From positions 1 to 64,000 of IMG/VR virus record IMGVR_UViG_3300036760_000327: a stretch of 64,000 nucleotides of DNA, one strand, 5' to 3'. This document shows, piece after piece, positions 1 through 22,204 of this stretch (position 1 is the first letter of the stretch; each line of letters begins with the position of its first letter). The DNA is from a virus. The notes under the pieces are model-generated. The model was not told the DNA's origin. It saw nothing but the letters and a program-made list of their open reading frames with translations, and ran no database searches. The translations under genes and the position numbers were made by a program.

Positions 1-52
1 TTCACTTTCACAATGTCGATTAACCTATCGAAATCATTCATGATTTTTCTAT

Positions 53-81
53 TTGACTTTTCGTTTGTGAAAAGTTAGAAT
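53..81 (+). promoter_or_regulatory. sigma70-type early promoter
   Basis: TTGACT (53-58), exactly 17 nt, TAGAAT (76-81), upstream of the whole + strand early region. Confidence 0.75.
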
Positions 82-87
82 TGTCTC

Positions 88-1735
88 AAATTTGGAAGAA
101 AAGTTTGAGAATTTGAGAAGAAAGAAGGTGAAAAGAGAAGTAAAATAATCTAACATTCGTTCCACAATGGGATGACCGCGTATCCCATAGAGTAAACTAT
201 CCAATGCTCTGAATGTAGCCTATACACTACAACGCGTGGAAAGTCAAATCTCCTGTAATGGGATAGCATTTAGACAGGTATGACTAATACAGTCTGTCCG
301 AACAGACTGGCGGAGACGCACCAGGCCGTATATGCCCAATATACGAAAATAACTCGGTAATGTATAGACTATGCCTTGCTATAGGCCCATGTTAGAACTT
401 ATCTGGCCTCTCCATCTTACAAAATGAGAGGTCAACATGGATAAGAACATGGTAACTTTAAAAATCGGAAAGACGATTATTCAATGCCGTCCAGAAGACG
501 TGGGAAATATAATGTCTTCAGTTTCTACGGCACCTGTAACCGCGGAAAAGAAATATGAAAAATCTACGGTTATCCATAAGGCAATCCGTAATCTAGAGGC
601 GAACACTCCAGAGGAATTAGTGATTGGTGCTCTAGCCAATAGATCGGGAATCCATACCGTCTTTTCAGGGTTAAATGAAGAATTGAGAAACCGTTTCGGA
701 GCAGATCCCATTGATGTAACTGAAAAGATGATGAATGCCGGTCTTATTAAGGGGCGTCCGGCGAAAAAGGGATTTTGGATCACTAAATAACTTTTCGCAT
801 AAAGCTATCAGTCAATAGCACAATGCGAAAATGGAGAGGTCAAATTGGTTCTAACATGGTTTTTCAGATATAAGAAGTTATAGGTGTTCTTGTATATACT
901 TGTAATAAGGGGTTATAGTTTAAACCTTTGCTATTTCTTATAGAAATGGATAAAACTAAATATATACAAGAGCTTACTAAAATTTCTTATCCGTCTGCCT
1001 CCAGAGTAGAAATAAGTAAGGGCAGAGCAAGAGTGGAAATCTCTTGACTATACTCGTTTGGAACCATTAAGCGAGCTCTTATATAAGTCTCGTTGAACAA
1101 CGGGTTGAGTATAGGTTTCATTTCTGGCTTATTTTGAAAAGGAACGGACACTGATTAAGAAATGGATGGCCTATAATGGAATATATCCTATTCCTAACTT
1201 ATAAACTATATAATGCACCTAATATTATATAGTTAAGTAAGTAACGGCCCAGTTGCGAGAATGTAGACGTTGCTACTTACTGGGTGATGACTGGATAAAT
1301 GAATATTATGACGCATGTCATCATTTACGCCAGTATAAAAGCGCAGACGGGAAAAACTAACCCCGATTGAGACTAAGGGGCAACGAGAGAATGTCGGCCC
1401 GTCGTATGTCATACGGACAGAGCTCTTTCGAGATGAGCACGTATGTCTTTATCCATTATAAGAATGAGGTCAAATAACATGACAAAATGGATATATCTTC
1501 TAAAGGTATTTGTTCAGCCAGCCTATGAAGATATTATAATTGGCAAGAACACGAGGCAGAGAGGATACTGGAGCTCTGCTGAAAAGAGAATAACTGGCCG
1601 AGCAGACAACTCGGAAGAGCAAGCCAGTAGTTGAAGCTGGCATACTATACAATAAATAGGGCGGCCACGAGCTGCTTAAACAGATGACGGGGTATGTTCT
1701 TTATGCGGACATACCCCGTTATTCTTATATCTACC
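88..1735 (+). ncRNA. candidate large structured early RNA (leader plus intergenic domain) with embedded ORF 437-790
   Basis: Near-continuous stems: 160-165/236-241 closing three hairpins, 290-309, 387-415/831-859, 792-831, 888-898/961-971, 1204-1214/1224-1234, 1684-1699/1707-1722, 866-876/1722-1732. Many non-WC pairs are G.U on the + strand. Confidence 0.55.
437..790 (+). CDS. first early protein, small basic protein (possible winged-helix nucleic-acid binder)
   Basis: 117 aa, SD GAGAGG 426-431. The C-terminal GIHTVFSGLNE...GLIKGRPAKKG segment resembles, from memory, an uncharacterised bacterial family. Confidence 0.7.
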   Translation: MDKNMVTLKIGKTIIQCRPEDVGNIMSSVSTAPVTAEKKYEKSTVIHKAIRNLEANTPEELVIGALANRSGIHTVFSGLNEELRNRFGADPIDVTEKMMNAGLIKGRPAKKGFWITK

Positions 1736-3259: not shown

Positions 3260-3549
3260 ACCATTTAAATGCGAAAGAGAAAATCGGGGATGTCTATGTT
3301 ATTCATTTTGATAAAAAATACTACCATTGTCTTCATTATATAGGATTCACACAAATTGGTATAAATAATAGATTGTATTTACATAAAACAAATCGTGGAG
3401 CAGCTTTATTAAAGGCTGTTAATAGAGCAGGCATTGACTACAAGATAACTTTATGTTTTAAAAATGTTCCTCAATCATTTGAATTTAAATTGAAACGTCA
3501 AAAGAAAGCAAGTAATATATGTCCGTTATGTAAACAAAGGAGGCTATAA
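3256..3549 (+). CDS. GIY-YIG nuclease-family protein
   Basis: DVYVIHF...HYIGFT...RLYLH...E.KLK pattern and C-terminal CPLC. Confidence 0.7.
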   Translation: MNHLNAKEKIGDVYVIHFDKKYYHCLHYIGFTQIGINNRLYLHKTNRGAALLKAVNRAGIDYKITLCFKNVPQSFEFKLKRQKKASNICPLCKQRRL

Positions 3550-3744: not shown

Positions 3745-4729
3745 ATGAAAATAACAGAAGTTAATTTTGGTCCTATGTTTAATGCTAGCACTGATAAACA
3801 TCCGGTAATAGTCCCTACTGGAAAAGTTACAATATCAGATTGCTATGATGAGAAGGAGCCTCGTCCATATGGAAGATTTCTGGTTAATGTGCACGTTAAT
3901 GTTGGAAGGGATTATAGAGTTATTCAAATTACTGAAAAGAATTATGCTAATCCTATAATAGTAGGTGGGATTGATTGTACGCCATATTTAAATGGAGCAT
4001 AAGCAAGGAAGCTATACCTTATTTAATTAATACTATGTATAAGGAGAAGAAAATTAAACCTTGGAGGGAAGGAGAAAAAAATGAAGTTTAAATTAAAAAC
4101 TTCTGGCTATTTTTACAAAGATGAGGACAAGGAAAAACTATTGAAACTGGGGTTTAAATTTGATCCTTATATATTTAAGGAATATAGATGGACTAAAAAA
4201 GATAATGTACCAGAAATAGAAATAAATTCCCTTAATGAGTTGGTTAAATTTATGGAAGAATGGGGAGATTTAATTTTATCCCCCAACGCAATAGAAATTT
4301 ATGATAACTATAGAGAATAAAACGATAATAAAAGGAGCTAATATGAAAAATAATAGAAAATATAGTGATGATATTGGATGGAATATTATAGGTTGGATAG
4401 CTGAACGAGTATTTCCTTATCTGCTTCTTGCTGTGATAGGAATATTCTCGTTATTAATAATAGGAATGGCAATAAAATTAATATTAATTCTAATACATTA
4501 AATAATATAAAAGAAAGGAGGTTAGATGAATACTGAAAAAATTATAGAAATTGCAACTCAATGGACTGAAAATCCGCCCTCCCAATTAAGAAATGCTACT
4601 GACTTAAGGATTTGTAAGAATGCAATTTTGTTGCTGTCGTATCGTGGTCTTTCTTCAGGGCTAACCCAGAAGGAGCGAGTTAACCTAAATATTTTGGTTG
4701 GTTTAAGAAAGGAGGAATTACGAAAATAG
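3745..4729 (+). CDS. small hypothetical ORFs (3745-4002, 4081-4320, 4343-4501 membrane, 4526-4729)
   Basis: Each has an AGGA/GGAG SD; starts adjusted to the SD. Confidence 0.55.
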
Positions 4730-20171: not shown

Positions 20172-20244
20172 GCTTGCGTAGCTTATGAAGGTAAAGCCCT
20201 GTTTTGTAAACAGGAAGAAGGGGGTTCAATTCCTCCCGCAAGCT
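20172..20244 (+). tRNA. tRNA-Thr(UGU), CCA not encoded
   Basis: Acceptor GCTTGCG/CGCAAGC, D arm GCTT/AAGC, anticodon arm CCTGT-TTTGTAA-ACAGG, T arm GGGGG-TTCAATT-CCTCC. Confidence 0.9.
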
Positions 20245-20296
20245 CTAAGATGTGGGCTCTACCCTGACTTGTTCTACCAAATTTTTTCAAGGAGGA

Positions 20297-21017: not shown

Positions 21018-21335
21018 ATGGCAGATAAATATGCTGAATAACGTCGTTCTATTATTAATAGAAATAAATGGTTAGCTTTTTTAAAGGAGAATGATAAGAC
21101 TTGCTGTTCTAGATGTGGATATGATACTTATTTTGGCGCTATTGATTTTCATCATTTAAATCCCGCGCAAAAAGAATATGATATTGGGACTATTTTGACA
21201 CAGAAAATAACAGATAAAAGAATACAGGAAATTCAAAAATGTATAACTTTATGTTCTAATTGTCATAGAGAACTTCATGCAGGATTATGGACTATTTTAA
21301 ATGGTGTTTGTCCGCACAAAGAAGAGGAAATATAA
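21018..21335 (+). pseudogene. HNH endonuclease with in-frame TAA at codon 8
   Basis: MADKYAE*RRSIINRNKWLAFLKENDKTCCSRCGYD...IDFHH...LCSNCHRELHAGLW; paralog of 38636-39118. Confidence 0.75.
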
Positions 21336-22204
21336 TGTCTTATTACCATATCCCAAATTTATACCAGGATCAATCTATTCTTCTTTTTAAAGAGTGTTAC
21401 GCCCTAGAAAAGATTCATGGAACTAGCGCTCATATTTTATATAAGGATGATGATATAGTATTTTTTTCTGGAGGTGTTAAATACGAGGAATTTGTAAAAT
21501 TATTCAGTTACGAAAATTTGTTATCCATATTTAGAGAACACTTTACACCAGAACAAAAGGTATGCGTATATGGAGAAGCTTATGGTGGTAAATGTCAAGG
21601 AATGTCGACTACTTATGGCCCAAATTTAAAATTTGTAGCATTTGAAGTTCTTGTAGATGGTATATGGTTAAAGGTTCCAGATGCTGAAACAGTTGTTAAA
21701 TTTCTGGGATTAGAATTTGTATTTTATCGTAAAATTCCTACTGATATAGAATCTATTAATAGAGAAAGAGATGCTCCTTCTATTCAAGCAGTTCGTAATG
21801 GGATCCCAGATTATCAGCCGATGTTTAGAGAAGGAATTGTTCTTCGTCCACTAGAAGAAATGATAAAAAATAATGGAGGACGTGTTATTGCTAAACATAA
21901 AAGGGATGAATTTAGGGAGACTAAAACCCCGCGAAATGTAATAGATAAATCTGAAAAACGGGAAAAATTAATTGAAGTAAATAAAATTATTGATGAATGG
22001 TTAACCGAAAGGCGATTGGATCACGTATTGGATAATGCTAATTTGGAATTAAAAGTGGAAAATATTGGGAAAATAATTCCTTTAATGATGGAGGATATAT
22101 ACAGAGAGGGGAAGGGCGAGATTGAAGAATCTCAAGAATTAAAGAAAGCCATCGGGAGAGAAACAGCACTTATGTTTAAAAGGAGATTAAATGTCATAAA
22201 ATAG
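21335..22204 (+). CDS. RNA ligase (Rnl2-like)
   Basis: EKIHGT (motif I), YGEAYG, FVAFEV, REGIVLRP and AKHK; start placed at the TAATG overlap. Confidence 0.88.
   Translation: MSYYHIPNLYQDQSILLFKECYALEKIHGTSAHILYKDDDIVFFSGGVKYEEFVKLFSYENLLSIFREHFTPEQKVCVYGEAYGGKCQGMSTTYGPNLKFVAFEVLVDGIWLKVPDAETVVKFLGLEFVFYRKIPTDIESINRERDAPSIQAVRNGIPDYQPMFREGIVLRPLEEMIKNNGGRVIAKHKRDEFRETKTPRNVIDKSEKREKLIEVNKIIDEWLTERRLDHVLDNANLELKVENIGKIIPLMMEDIYREGKGEIEESQELKKAIGRETALMFKRRLNVIK

What the first reader, a model, noticed from the sequence alone, without database searches (positions are those of the whole stretch)
387..859. Long-range RNA switch: a 3'-UTR element could unlock the RBS of the first early gene
Seen: arm A (387-415, CCATGTTAGAACTTATCTGGCCTCTCCAT) can fold locally onto the translation start. 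GGCCTCTC pairs with GAGAGGTC (SD 426-431), CTTATC with GATAAG and CCATGTT with AACATGG, covering the SD and the ATG at 449 and enclosing the ATG at 437. Arm A is also complementary over 29 nt (25 WC, 2 G.U, 2 mismatches) to arm B (831-859), just past the stop codon. The two pairings are mutually exclusive. Inference: the nascent mRNA is translationally silent until the 3' arm is made, the reverse logic of hok fold-back inhibition. Alternatively the A:B duplex is an RNase III-type stem that excises the ORF, as in rRNA processing, and could conceivably be ligated by the phage RNA ligase. Either would be an unusual timing device for the very first phage gene.
Basis: partly seen in the sequence, partly recalled or inferred. 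Interest (0 to 1): 0.82.

Follow-up and report, generated by a model that had tools for sequence, protein, structure and literature searches.

The report
RNA stem enclosing an early phage gene
The sequences just before and just after a small early phage gene pair into a 29-base RNA helix that loops out the whole gene. Relatives keep the pairing with unrelated sequences, so the helix is real, but the proposed job of unlocking the ribosome site shows clearly only in this phage and one distant relative.

Summary
Arm A (387-415) and arm B (831-859) form 25 Watson-Crick pairs, 2 G.U pairs and 2 mismatches. They are the best inverted repeat in the 64-kb window and are kept in the minimum-energy fold of the whole 1.4-kb leader region (pairing probability 0.88).

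Four other lineages carrying homologues of the enclosed 117-aa gene (54% down to about 32% identity) each have their own 30-39 nt helix in the same place, with unrelated sequence. Across the five helices the non-Watson-Crick positions are 13 G.U on the sense strand against 2 C.A. This points to selection on the mRNA, not on the DNA.

The local fold of arm A onto the Shine-Dalgarno (SD) sequence and start codon is real and far beyond chance here. The cost of opening the ribosome binding site (RBS) falls from 15.1 to 6.4 kcal/mol once arm B exists. Only one of the four relatives shows a comparable effect, so the switch is a lineage-specific add-on.

My best reading is an rRNA-like, RNase III-type processing or end-pairing helix that defines a one-gene message inside a heavily structured early transcript, and here also removes an anti-SD lock. 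Cleavage is inferred, not shown.

This scan has noted similar gene-bracketing stems in at least 54 other phage genomes.

The parts
53..81 (+). sigma-70-like promoter TTGACT-17-TAGAAT (10 of 12 positions), putative start of the early rightward transcript
   Evidence: L004 has a perfect TTGACA-17-TATAAT in the equivalent position upstream of its arm A. This is a consensus match only.
88..386 (+). ORF-free 5' leader, purine-rich at its start then hairpin-rich; a small hairpin at 373-386 abuts arm A
   Evidence: It has no sequence similarity to the L004 leader.
387..415 (+). arm A, the 5' strand of the long-range helix (weakly extendable to 418); it contains the anti-SD-like run GGCCUCUCC
387..453 (+). 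alternative local hairpin in which arm A pairs with the SD, the spacer and codons 2-6 of ORF1
   Evidence: fold; z = -5.0; RBS opening energy.
426..431 (+). Shine-Dalgarno GAGAGG, 5 nt before the start codon
   Evidence: start fixed by the homologue alignment.
437..790 (+). ORF1, a 117-aa conserved protein of unknown function (stop codon included)
   Evidence: No Pfam or PHROG family. No significant structural match.
792..831 (+). 3' hairpin between the stop codon and arm B; loop CAGUCA; stacks directly on the long-range helix
   Evidence: I10. A hairpin with a GUCAA-type loop sits in the same place in L004 and L005.
831..859 (+). arm B, the 3' strand of the long-range helix (extendable to 828); it contains GGAGAGGUCAA, a near copy of the ORF1 SD region
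870..990 (+). long irregular hairpin directly after arm B
   Evidence: (I15). Partly conserved in L005.
1010..1480 (+). conserved, ORF-free structured RNA between the ORF1 unit and the next gene (ATG at 1479)
   Evidence: The consensus fold of three sequences has 99 pairs, 27 of them with compensatory changes. No Rfam family matches. The core 1337-1407 is 76% identical to L004.

Best explanation
Arm A and arm B pair in the sense transcript. The resulting 29-bp helix (30-39 nt arms in relatives) closes the entire ORF1 cistron, with its SD and a 3' hairpin, into a loop of about 415 nt.

The conserved role is most likely that of a leader-trailer helix. It would be a long double-stranded RNA recognised by the host's RNase III. 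Whether cut or not, it ties the two ends of the ORF1 message together. It would thereby define and stabilise a one-gene mRNA within a long early transcript that also carries structured non-coding RNA (a tRNA in one relative).

The helix ends 17-27 nt before the start codon in four of the five lineages and starts 8-47 nt after the stop codon. Ribosomes can therefore initiate and terminate without melting it.

In this phage, arm A is in addition an anti-SD. Before arm B is transcribed it folds onto the SD and AUG. Helix formation, or cleavage that removes arm A, opens the ribosome site.

Shown: the pairings, their conservation, the RNA-level mismatch bias, and the predicted change in accessibility. 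Inferred: RNase III cleavage, stabilisation, and the effect on translation.
For: 1. Strength. The helix is the best inverted repeat in 64 kb. It has z = -9.7 against shuffles and survives in the global fold with probability 0.88 here and 0.89 in L004.

2. Conservation with unrelated sequences around homologous ORFs:
- L004 2936-2974/3405-3443: 39 nt, 92% complementary.
- L015 2449-2479/2926-2956: 31 nt, 90%.
- L016 2376-2414/2824-2862: 39 nt, 79%.
- L017 (identical to L018 here) 2298-2327/2799-2828: 30 nt, 87%.
- Duplex energies run from -46 to -62 kcal/mol.
- Between the window and L004, 19 of 29 pairs changed on both sides. The arms are only 7 and 9 of 29 identical.

3. RNA level and sense strand. 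Over the five helices there are 146 Watson-Crick pairs, 13 G.U, 2 C.A and 7 other mismatches. My binomial test on 13 against 2 gives two-sided p of about 0.007.

4. Geometry is kept. Arm A to AUG is 21, 20, 27, 17 and 59 nt. Stop codon to arm B is 40, 47, 8, 20 and 10 nt.

5. Helices of 29-39 bp exceed the roughly two turns that RNase III needs (established knowledge). T7 early mRNA is cut in this way by host RNase III (PMC4858673).

6. Processing context. L004 has a second ORF-bracketing helix (26 nt, 96%, -39.9 kcal/mol). In L017 a tRNA-Ile gene starts 15 nt after arm B. Here a covarying structured RNA follows.

7. Lineage-specific lock. The RBS opening energy falls from 15.1 to 6.4 kcal/mol, and 0 of 150 shuffled arms reach the observed value.
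Against: - There is no RNA data, so there is no evidence of transcription, ends or cleavage.
- The phage encodes no RNase III and the host is unknown.
- Nothing computed here separates 'cut by RNase III' from 'an uncut clamp'.
- The strong SD mimicry of arm B in this phage (GGAGAGGUCAA against GAGAGGUCAA) is not needed for a pure processing stem. It hints that regulation matters at least here.
- Only five lineages were available.
- The promoter assignment is a consensus match only.
Confidence: 0.5

Rival explanations
1. The nascent mRNA is silent because arm A sequesters the SD and AUG. Arm B, made about 415 nt later, displaces it, so ORF1 is translated only from complete transcripts. No cleavage is needed.
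For: The local hairpin is far beyond chance (z = -5.0). The RBS opening cost drops by 8.7 kcal/mol when arm B appears, and 0 of 150 shuffled arms reach the observed value. Arm B copies the SD region nearly letter for letter. L017 shows a smaller significant effect (13.8 against 10.2 +/- 1.6; 1 of 150).
Against: L004, L015 and L016 show no occlusion beyond shuffled arms (15, 90 and 81 of 150), yet all keep the helix. Helices of 30-39 nt and -46 to -62 kcal/mol are much longer than needed to outcompete a local hairpin. The delay would be only the seconds needed to transcribe about 415 nt. An untranslated nascent RNA also risks Rho termination (general knowledge).
Confidence: 0.18
2. The helix is an uncut end-pairing clamp. 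It only protects the 5' and 3' ends of the ORF1 message from RNases, as in B. subtilis hbs, or insulates ORF1 translation from the flanking structured RNA.
For: The helix ends sit just outside the ribosome footprint at the start and stop codons. A 14-bp 5'/3'-UTR pairing modulates RNase Y cleavage in hbs (PMC5737220). In L017 RNase P cutting of the adjacent tRNA would leave arm B near the mRNA 3' end.
Against: Long near-perfect double-stranded RNA is normally an RNase III substrate in bacteria (established knowledge). Helices far longer than 14 bp are not required for a clamp.
Confidence: 0.15
3. The helix is the closing stem of one large ribozyme or non-coding RNA whose 5' and 3' parts (88-386 and 860-1480) act together. 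ORF1 is looped out, as ORFs are in peripheral loops of group I introns.
For: Both flanks are ORF-free and structured. The phage has group I intron-like hits elsewhere.
Against: The group I model gives no hit in 1-1700. The 5' leader is not conserved with L004. L016 and L017 keep the helix without the downstream RNA.
Confidence: 0.07
4. This is a DNA-level inverted repeat: the terminal repeats of a small mobile cassette, an invertible segment, or paired operator sites for the ORF1 protein.
For: Imperfect inverted repeats of 29-39 bp around a single small gene are typical of mobile cassettes. ORF1 has weak, unconfirmed winged-helix leads.
Against: G.U outnumbers C.A by 13 to 2 on the sense strand. 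No target-site duplication is visible. ORF1 has no transposase or recombinase family. ORF1 has the same orientation relative to the downstream RNA in the window, L004, L005 and L015. The arms diverge to random-level identity while the protein stays conserved.
Confidence: 0.04
5. RNase III excises the ORF1 unit, and the phage Rnl2-type RNA ligase seals the paired ends or rejoins the flanks. The result is a circular mRNA or a protein-catalysed splice.
For: An RNA ligase (PF09414) is encoded here at 21392-21898 and also in the L004 phage. RNase III leaves 5'-phosphate and 3'-OH ends, which such ligases join (established knowledge).
Against: There is no direct evidence. The ligase gene lies next to tRNA-Thr, the usual setting for tRNA repair. 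Ligation across a helix end would need a very tight turn.
Confidence: 0.03

Closest known systems
Leader-trailer (processing-stalk) helices that flank 16S and 23S rRNA in bacterial rrn operons and are cut by RNase III
   Same: Sequences hundreds of nucleotides apart, just outside the functional unit, pair into a helix of two turns or more that encloses the whole unit. The pairing is kept by compensatory change while the sequence drifts.
   Different: The enclosed unit is a translated protein-coding cistron with its own SD. Cleavage has not been shown. No boxA-type antitermination signal is detectable.
RNase III processing of the phage T7 early polycistronic mRNA (PMC4858673)
   Same: An early phage transcript made by the host polymerase is divided into mono- or dicistronic messages at double-stranded RNA sites. 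Processing affects translation of some messages.
   Different: T7 sites are local intergenic hairpins of about 60 nt, not helices formed across a whole gene. The T7 sites are experimentally proven.
icaR mRNA of Staphylococcus aureus: 3'-UTR pairing with the SD region (PMC3868564)
   Same: A 5'-3' interaction within one bacterial mRNA involves SD and anti-SD-like sequence and creates an RNase III substrate.
   Different: In icaR the 3'-UTR carries the anti-SD and represses translation. Here the 5' arm carries the anti-SD and the 3' arm is an SD mimic that would relieve repression. The direct TIR:arm B duplex is weak here (-10.9 kcal/mol).
hbs mRNA of Bacillus subtilis: 14-bp 5'/3'-UTR interaction (PMC5737220)
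   Same: Long-range pairing of the two UTRs of a small, highly expressed gene modulates RNase access.
   Different: That pairing is 14 bp against 29-39 bp here. It acts on RNase Y, and it is not a gene-family-wide covarying feature.
hok mRNA fold-back inhibition (tac/fbi end pairing) of type I toxin-antitoxin loci
   Same: There are mutually exclusive 5'-local and 5'-3' long-range pairings, with co-transcriptional metastable structures controlling RBS access.
   Different: The logic is opposite: end pairing silences hok. There is no sign of a toxin or an antisense RNA. ORF1 is a 117-aa soluble-looking protein.
Long-range anti-SD effects in B. subtilis mRNAs (Gill et al. 2025, PMC12697547)
   Same: Anti-SD-like pyrimidine runs far from or near the RBS pair with it and lower expression. 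Neighbouring sequence can modulate this.
   Different: That work describes inhibitory elements and their depletion, not a dedicated 3' decoy that neutralises an anti-SD.

Membership tests
RNase III-type leader-trailer processing helix | Helix of about 20 bp or more formed by the sequences flanking the unit on both sides | tested here: met
   29 bp here (25 Watson-Crick + 2 G.U), and arms of 30-39 nt in four relatives.
RNase III-type leader-trailer processing helix | Pairing maintained by compensatory change on the transcribed strand | tested here: met
   19 of 29 pairs are changed on both sides against L004. G.U to C.A is 13 to 2 over five helices.
RNase III-type leader-trailer processing helix | Cleavage by RNase III in vivo or in vitro | not testable with these tools
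   No RNA run holds the stretch. The phage has no RNase III gene and the host is unknown.
Anti-SD / anti-anti-SD translational switch | Two mutually exclusive pairings, one of which occludes the SD and start codon | tested here: met
   Local hairpin -26.6 kcal/mol (z = -5.0). RBS opening energy falls from 15.1 to 6.4 kcal/mol.
Anti-SD / anti-anti-SD translational switch | Both alternative pairings conserved in homologous loci | tested here: not met
   Occlusion by arm A is beyond shuffled arms only in the window (0 of 150) and L017 (1 of 150). It is not in L004, L015 or L016 (15, 90 and 81 of 150).
icaR-type 3'-UTR repression | The 3'-UTR element pairs directly with the SD region | tested here: not met
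   The TIR:arm B duplex is only -10.9 kcal/mol here, and arm B alone does not raise the opening energy (4.6 against 5.8). In L015 arm B alone raises it modestly (8.5 against 4.1).
Mobile cassette or inverton with terminal inverted repeats | Repeat acts as DNA: symmetric mismatch spectrum, target-site duplication, a recombinase or transposase | tested here: not met
   Sense-strand G.U bias of 13 to 2. No duplication at the arm borders. ORF1 has no Pfam or PHROG family.
Group I intron with looped-out ORF | Recognisable group I core next to the ORF-bearing stem | tested here: not met
   RF00028 gives hits only at 83.7-85.7 kb of the genome and none in 1-1700.
rrn-like antitermination leader (boxA) | boxA consensus ahead of the helix | tested here: not met
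   GCTCTTTAACAA with up to 3 mismatches occurs at chance level (91 matches against 97 expected), and none lies upstream of arm A.

The most novel reading that the evidence does not exclude
ORF-bracketing helices are a general way for phages to package early messages. In this lineage, host RNase III cuts the helix. This both removes the anti-SD lock and leaves paired 5'-phosphate and 3'-OH ends, which the phage's own Rnl2-type RNA ligase seals. The product would be an end-closed or circular ORF1 mRNA, or rejoined flanks, that is, a protein-only splice. That would give phage RNA ligase 2, whose natural role is unknown, a substrate.
Probability: 0.04. Interest if true: 0.95.

Novelty: new variant of a known kind. 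Interest (0 to 1): 0.6.

Why it matters
Leader-trailer helices are textbook for rRNA, and local RNase III hairpins are textbook for T7 messages. A covarying helix that encloses a whole translated gene and travels with a protein family down to about 30% identity is not, to my knowledge, a described class.

If it is cut or acts as a clamp, it shows how phages with heavily structured early transcripts define and protect individual messages. It also gives a simple sequence signature for finding such units.

The version in this phage adds a 5' anti-SD neutralised by a 3' SD mimic. That is the mirror image of icaR and would be a rare case of a bacterial-type 3'-UTR activating translation. It is directly testable with a few reporter constructs.

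Tried and rejected
- **GenBank phages.** There was no DNA or protein match to the region or to ORF1.
- **Scans that gave nothing new.** Viral scans with the first protein patterns and with three DNA patterns returned only the L004 contig. The genome-contig scans gave no relative and two hits at chance level. The metagenome scan gave only the truncated L005.
- **Sequencing runs.** No RNA holder was listed. The only holder is one DNA run that may be the source. Laying its contigs placed nothing on the region except an unrelated 36-nt piece.
- **Rfam.** Only tRNA-Thr passed the gathering threshold. Nothing meaningful in 1-2000 reached E <= 10.
- **Group I intron.** There was no hit in this region.
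- **boxA.** This lead came from other notes of the scan. Matches are at chance level.
- **Candidate phage promoter motif** TTCTTRTATATACT. It shows only a weak excess and no clear placement.
- **ORF1 function.** No Pfam or PHROG family was found. The AlphaFold model has pLDDT 70 and no Foldseek match at E <= 0.001 in PDB or BFVD. The Atlas gave only sub-threshold winged-helix leads.
- **Position of helix defects.** A mismatch or G.U lies 11-13 bp from the outer end in 4 of 5 helices. By my estimate this is not significant (about 0.06, and chosen post hoc).
- **Complex prediction** was not used, because no protein-protein claim is made.
Full report
**Setting**

The window is bases 1-64000 of a 106,486-bp IMG/VR virus record with 34% G+C. 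Its "direct terminal repeat" is exactly 127 nt, a common assembler word length. The physical genome end is therefore not established.

Genes run rightward from 437 to about 43 kb and leftward from 43 kb to 105.9 kb. Base 1-437 thus lies in a divergent, ORF-free region.

A sigma-70-like promoter (TTGACT-17-TAGAAT, 53-81) points rightward. ORF1 (437-790, 117 aa) is the first rightward ORF.

**The observation**

They give 25 Watson-Crick pairs, 2 G.U and 2 mismatches.

- The pair is the top-ranked inverted repeat of the whole window.
- Its duplex energy is about -41 kcal/mol, against -13.7 +/- 2.8 for dinucleotide shuffles of the partner region (z = -9.7).
- It is part of the minimum-energy fold of 360-900 (z = -4.7).
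- It is also in the fold of the whole putative leader region 88-1480, where arm A bases pair with arm B with mean probability 0.88.

The local alternative is also real. CCAUGUU/AACAUGG, CUUAUC/GAUAAG and UGGCCUCUC/GAGAGGUCA form a hairpin over the SD (426-431) and the start codon. Its energy is -26.6 kcal/mol (z = -5.0, 0 of 1000 shuffles). Only about 0.1% of all 65-nt windows of the genome pair with arm A as well.

The start codon is ATG 437, because Met1 is invariant across the 9 closest homologues (A6).

**Relatives**

ORF1 has no Pfam or PHROG family. It has seven homologues at 63-74% identity in the big protein collection. A profile search finds 136 cluster representatives at E <= 0.001.

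Loci therefore came from pattern scans:

- L004: a 110-kb viral contig, 54% identity.
- L005: a truncated contig with only the 3' end of the gene.
- L015, L016 and L017: more distant homologues, about 32-48% identity over the matched parts. These came after widening the alignment to 21 sequences. L018 is identical to L017 in this region.

**The helix is conserved, the sequence is not**

In every locus with both flanks, the strongest inverted repeat brackets the homologous ORF.

| Locus | Arms | Length | Complementary | Duplex energy (kcal/mol) |
|---|---|---|---|---|
| L004 | 2936-2974 / 3405-3443 | 39 nt | 92% | -61.5 |
| L015 | 2449-2479 / 2926-2956 | 31 nt | 90% | -58.1 |
| L016 | 2376-2414 / 2824-2862 | 39 nt | 79% | -46.4 |
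| L017 | 2298-2327 / 2799-2828 | 30 nt | 87% | -45.7 |

The arm sequences are unrelated. Between the window and L004, in the ungapped register from the shared outer C-G pair, 19 of 29 pairs changed on both sides and stayed paired. Only 7 and 9 of 29 arm positions are identical.

L005 has an arm B-like segment at the right place, but its 5' side is missing.

The geometry is kept. Arm A ends 21, 20, 27, 17 and 59 nt before the AUG. Arm B begins 40, 47, 8, 20 and 10 nt after the stop codon. A ribosome can therefore start and stop without opening the helix.

**RNA or DNA?**

Over the five helices I count 146 Watson-Crick pairs, 13 G.U on the sense strand, 2 C.A and 7 other mismatches. The C.A pairs would be G.U on the antisense strand.

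Transitions should give G.U and C.A equally if only DNA complementarity mattered. My binomial calculation on 13 against 2 gives a two-sided p of about 0.007.

Four further points favour a helix selected in the sense RNA over transposon ends, an inverton or operator sites:

- There is no target duplication at the arm borders.
- ORF1 has no recombinase-like family.
- ORF1 keeps its orientation relative to the downstream RNA.
- The arms have drifted to random-level identity while the protein is conserved.

**Is the RBS lock conserved?**

I computed the ensemble free energy needed to make the SD-to-AUG stretch single-stranded.

| Locus | Arm A only (kcal/mol) | Arms A + B (kcal/mol) |
|---|---|---|
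| Window | 15.1 | 6.4 |
| L004 | 6.0 | 2.9 |
| L015 | 5.7 | 5.9 |
| L016 | 4.7 | 2.3 |
| L017 | 13.1 | 9.5 |

In the window the value is 4.6-5.8 without arm A. In L015, arm B alone gives 8.5.

As a control I replaced arm A by 150 shuffled versions in the nascent construct.

| Locus | Real arm A | Shuffled arms (mean +/- sd) | Shuffles reaching the real value |
|---|---|---|---|
| Window | 14.9 | 7.2 +/- 1.8 | 0 of 150 |
| L017 | 13.8 | 10.2 +/- 1.6 | 1 of 150 |
| L004 | 6.0 | 4.6 +/- 1.2 | 15 of 150 |
| L015 | 5.3 | 6.2 +/- 1.9 | 90 of 150 |
| L016 | 5.1 | 5.5 +/- 2.4 | 81 of 150 |

So an arm-A lock on the ribosome site is strong here and moderate in one distant relative. It is absent in three. 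The helix itself is present in all five.

The lock is therefore an addition to a helix that is kept for another reason.

**Context**

The helix sits in an RNA-processing-rich setting.

- L004 carries a second helix (4219-4244/4608-4633; 26 nt, 96% complementary, -39.9 kcal/mol). It encloses the next two small ORFs.
- In L017 a bona fide tRNA-Ile(GAU) gene starts 15 nt after arm B.
- In the window, L004, L005 and L015 the ORF1 unit is followed by a conserved, ORF-free structured RNA (window 1010-1480). A three-sequence consensus fold has 99 pairs, 27 with compensatory changes. It matches no Rfam family. Its motif GGGCAGAG-hairpin-ACUAUAC...GUAUAGGUUUCA recurs in L015 with a fourth version of the hairpin.

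The phage has no RNase III gene, so any cutting would be by the host enzyme. It does encode an RNA ligase of family PF09414, as does the L004 phage.

**Mechanism proposed**

The early transcript from the upstream promoter contains arm A. As the SD emerges, arm A folds onto it (in this phage). When arm B emerges about 415 nt later, it takes arm A by strand displacement. A:B is about 14 kcal/mol more stable than the local hairpin, and arm A bases 394-397 are free as a toehold.

The resulting helix of 29 bp or more, with the 3' hairpin (792-831) stacked on it, closes ORF1 into a loop with an open RBS. A helix of this length is a standard RNase III substrate. T7 early mRNA is processed this way (PMC4858673).

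Cutting would detach the leader and the downstream RNA, remove the anti-SD for good, and leave the mRNA ends paired. Cleavage and stabilisation are inferences.

The pairings, their conservation and the predicted accessibility change are computed results.

**Comparison with known systems**

- The closest structural analogue is the leader-trailer helix around 16S and 23S rRNA.
- The closest functional analogues for UTR-UTR pairing are icaR (PMC3868564; there the 3'-UTR is the anti-SD and represses) and hbs (PMC5737220; a 14-bp clamp against RNase Y).
- A recent study shows that anti-SD-like runs act over long distances in B. subtilis (PMC12697547). This makes the predicted lock plausible.

Other notes of this scan report gene-bracketing helices in at least 54 further phage genomes. 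These are unverified AI notes and I used them only as leads. The boxA lead taken from them fails here.

**Verdict**

The helix is real, acts at the RNA level and is conserved across a gene family.

The switch reading is partly supported. It holds, by prediction, for this phage, but it is not the conserved function.

This is a new variant of a known kind. Interest is moderate to high and depends on experiments that are simple to do.

Noticed in passing
window 1010-1480: A conserved ORF-free structured RNA lies between the ORF1 unit and the next gene. The consensus fold has 99 pairs, 27 with compensatory changes in three sequences. Invariant blocks include GGGCAGAG, AAACUAA, GACUAA, CAACGAG and AUGUCGGCC. 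No Rfam family matches. The 5' motif recurs in L015 (from 3014).
   Followed up: partly
window 1020-1120; L017 2844-2913: The start of that RNA (GCAGAGCAA, a hairpin, then UAUAGGUUUCA) resembles the D-stem/anticodon-arm/T-arm stretch of the real tRNA-Ile that occupies the same place after arm B in L017. It may be tRNA-derived or a tRNA-like processing signal. ARAGORN calls no tRNA here.
   Followed up: partly
L004 4219-4244 and 4608-4633: A second long-range helix (26 nt, 96% complementary, -39.9 kcal/mol) encloses two small ORFs (4261-4407 and 4404-4598). Its arm ends 16 nt before the GTG start codon, and the other arm starts 9 nt after the stop codon.
   Followed up: partly
L015 2960-3011 and 3142-3195: Directly after arm B, two further inverted-repeat segments enclose the GGGCAGAG domain. 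This suggests head-to-tail helices that each wrap one unit.
   Followed up: no
L016 2855-2872: The last 8 nt of arm B contain the SD (AAAGGAGA) of the next gene (ATG at 2870). In that phage the helix would also touch the downstream gene's ribosome site.
   Followed up: no
window 792-831; L004 3384-3404; L005 about 255-285: The hairpin between the stop codon and arm B has a GUCAA-type loop in all three phages (CAGUCA, CUGUCAA, CGUCAA). A further UGUCA loop lies at window about 1399-1411.
   Followed up: no
window 95-145; L004 2505-2560: Both leaders begin with a purine-rich, GGA/GAG-rich stretch right after the promoter. In L004 it ends in a strong SD for a 38-aa Cys-containing ORF (about 2560-2676) that the window lacks.
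   Followed up: no
window 1-127 and genome 106360-106486: The terminal direct repeat is exactly 127 nt, a usual assembler word size. It contains the promoter-like site at 53-81. It may be an assembly overlap rather than a true end.
   Followed up: partly
window 20172-20245 and 21287-22204: tRNA-Thr(UGU) is followed about 1 kb later by an RNA ligase gene (PF09414, 43 bits). The L004 phage has the ligase too.
   Followed up: partly
genome 83742-85674 (beyond the window): Three sub-threshold group I intron matches (best 39.4 bits, E = 6e-10) lie on the minus strand in the capsid region.
   Followed up: partly
ORF1 residues about 58-116 (window 608-787): The C-terminal module of ORF1 matches many proteins. 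In some it matches as tandem copies: P0017 has 15 stretches, and P0023 has 10 stretches where Pfam sees 10 PP-binding domains. ORF1 may have an acyl-carrier-like or winged-helix-like small helical fold. This is unresolved.
   Followed up: partly
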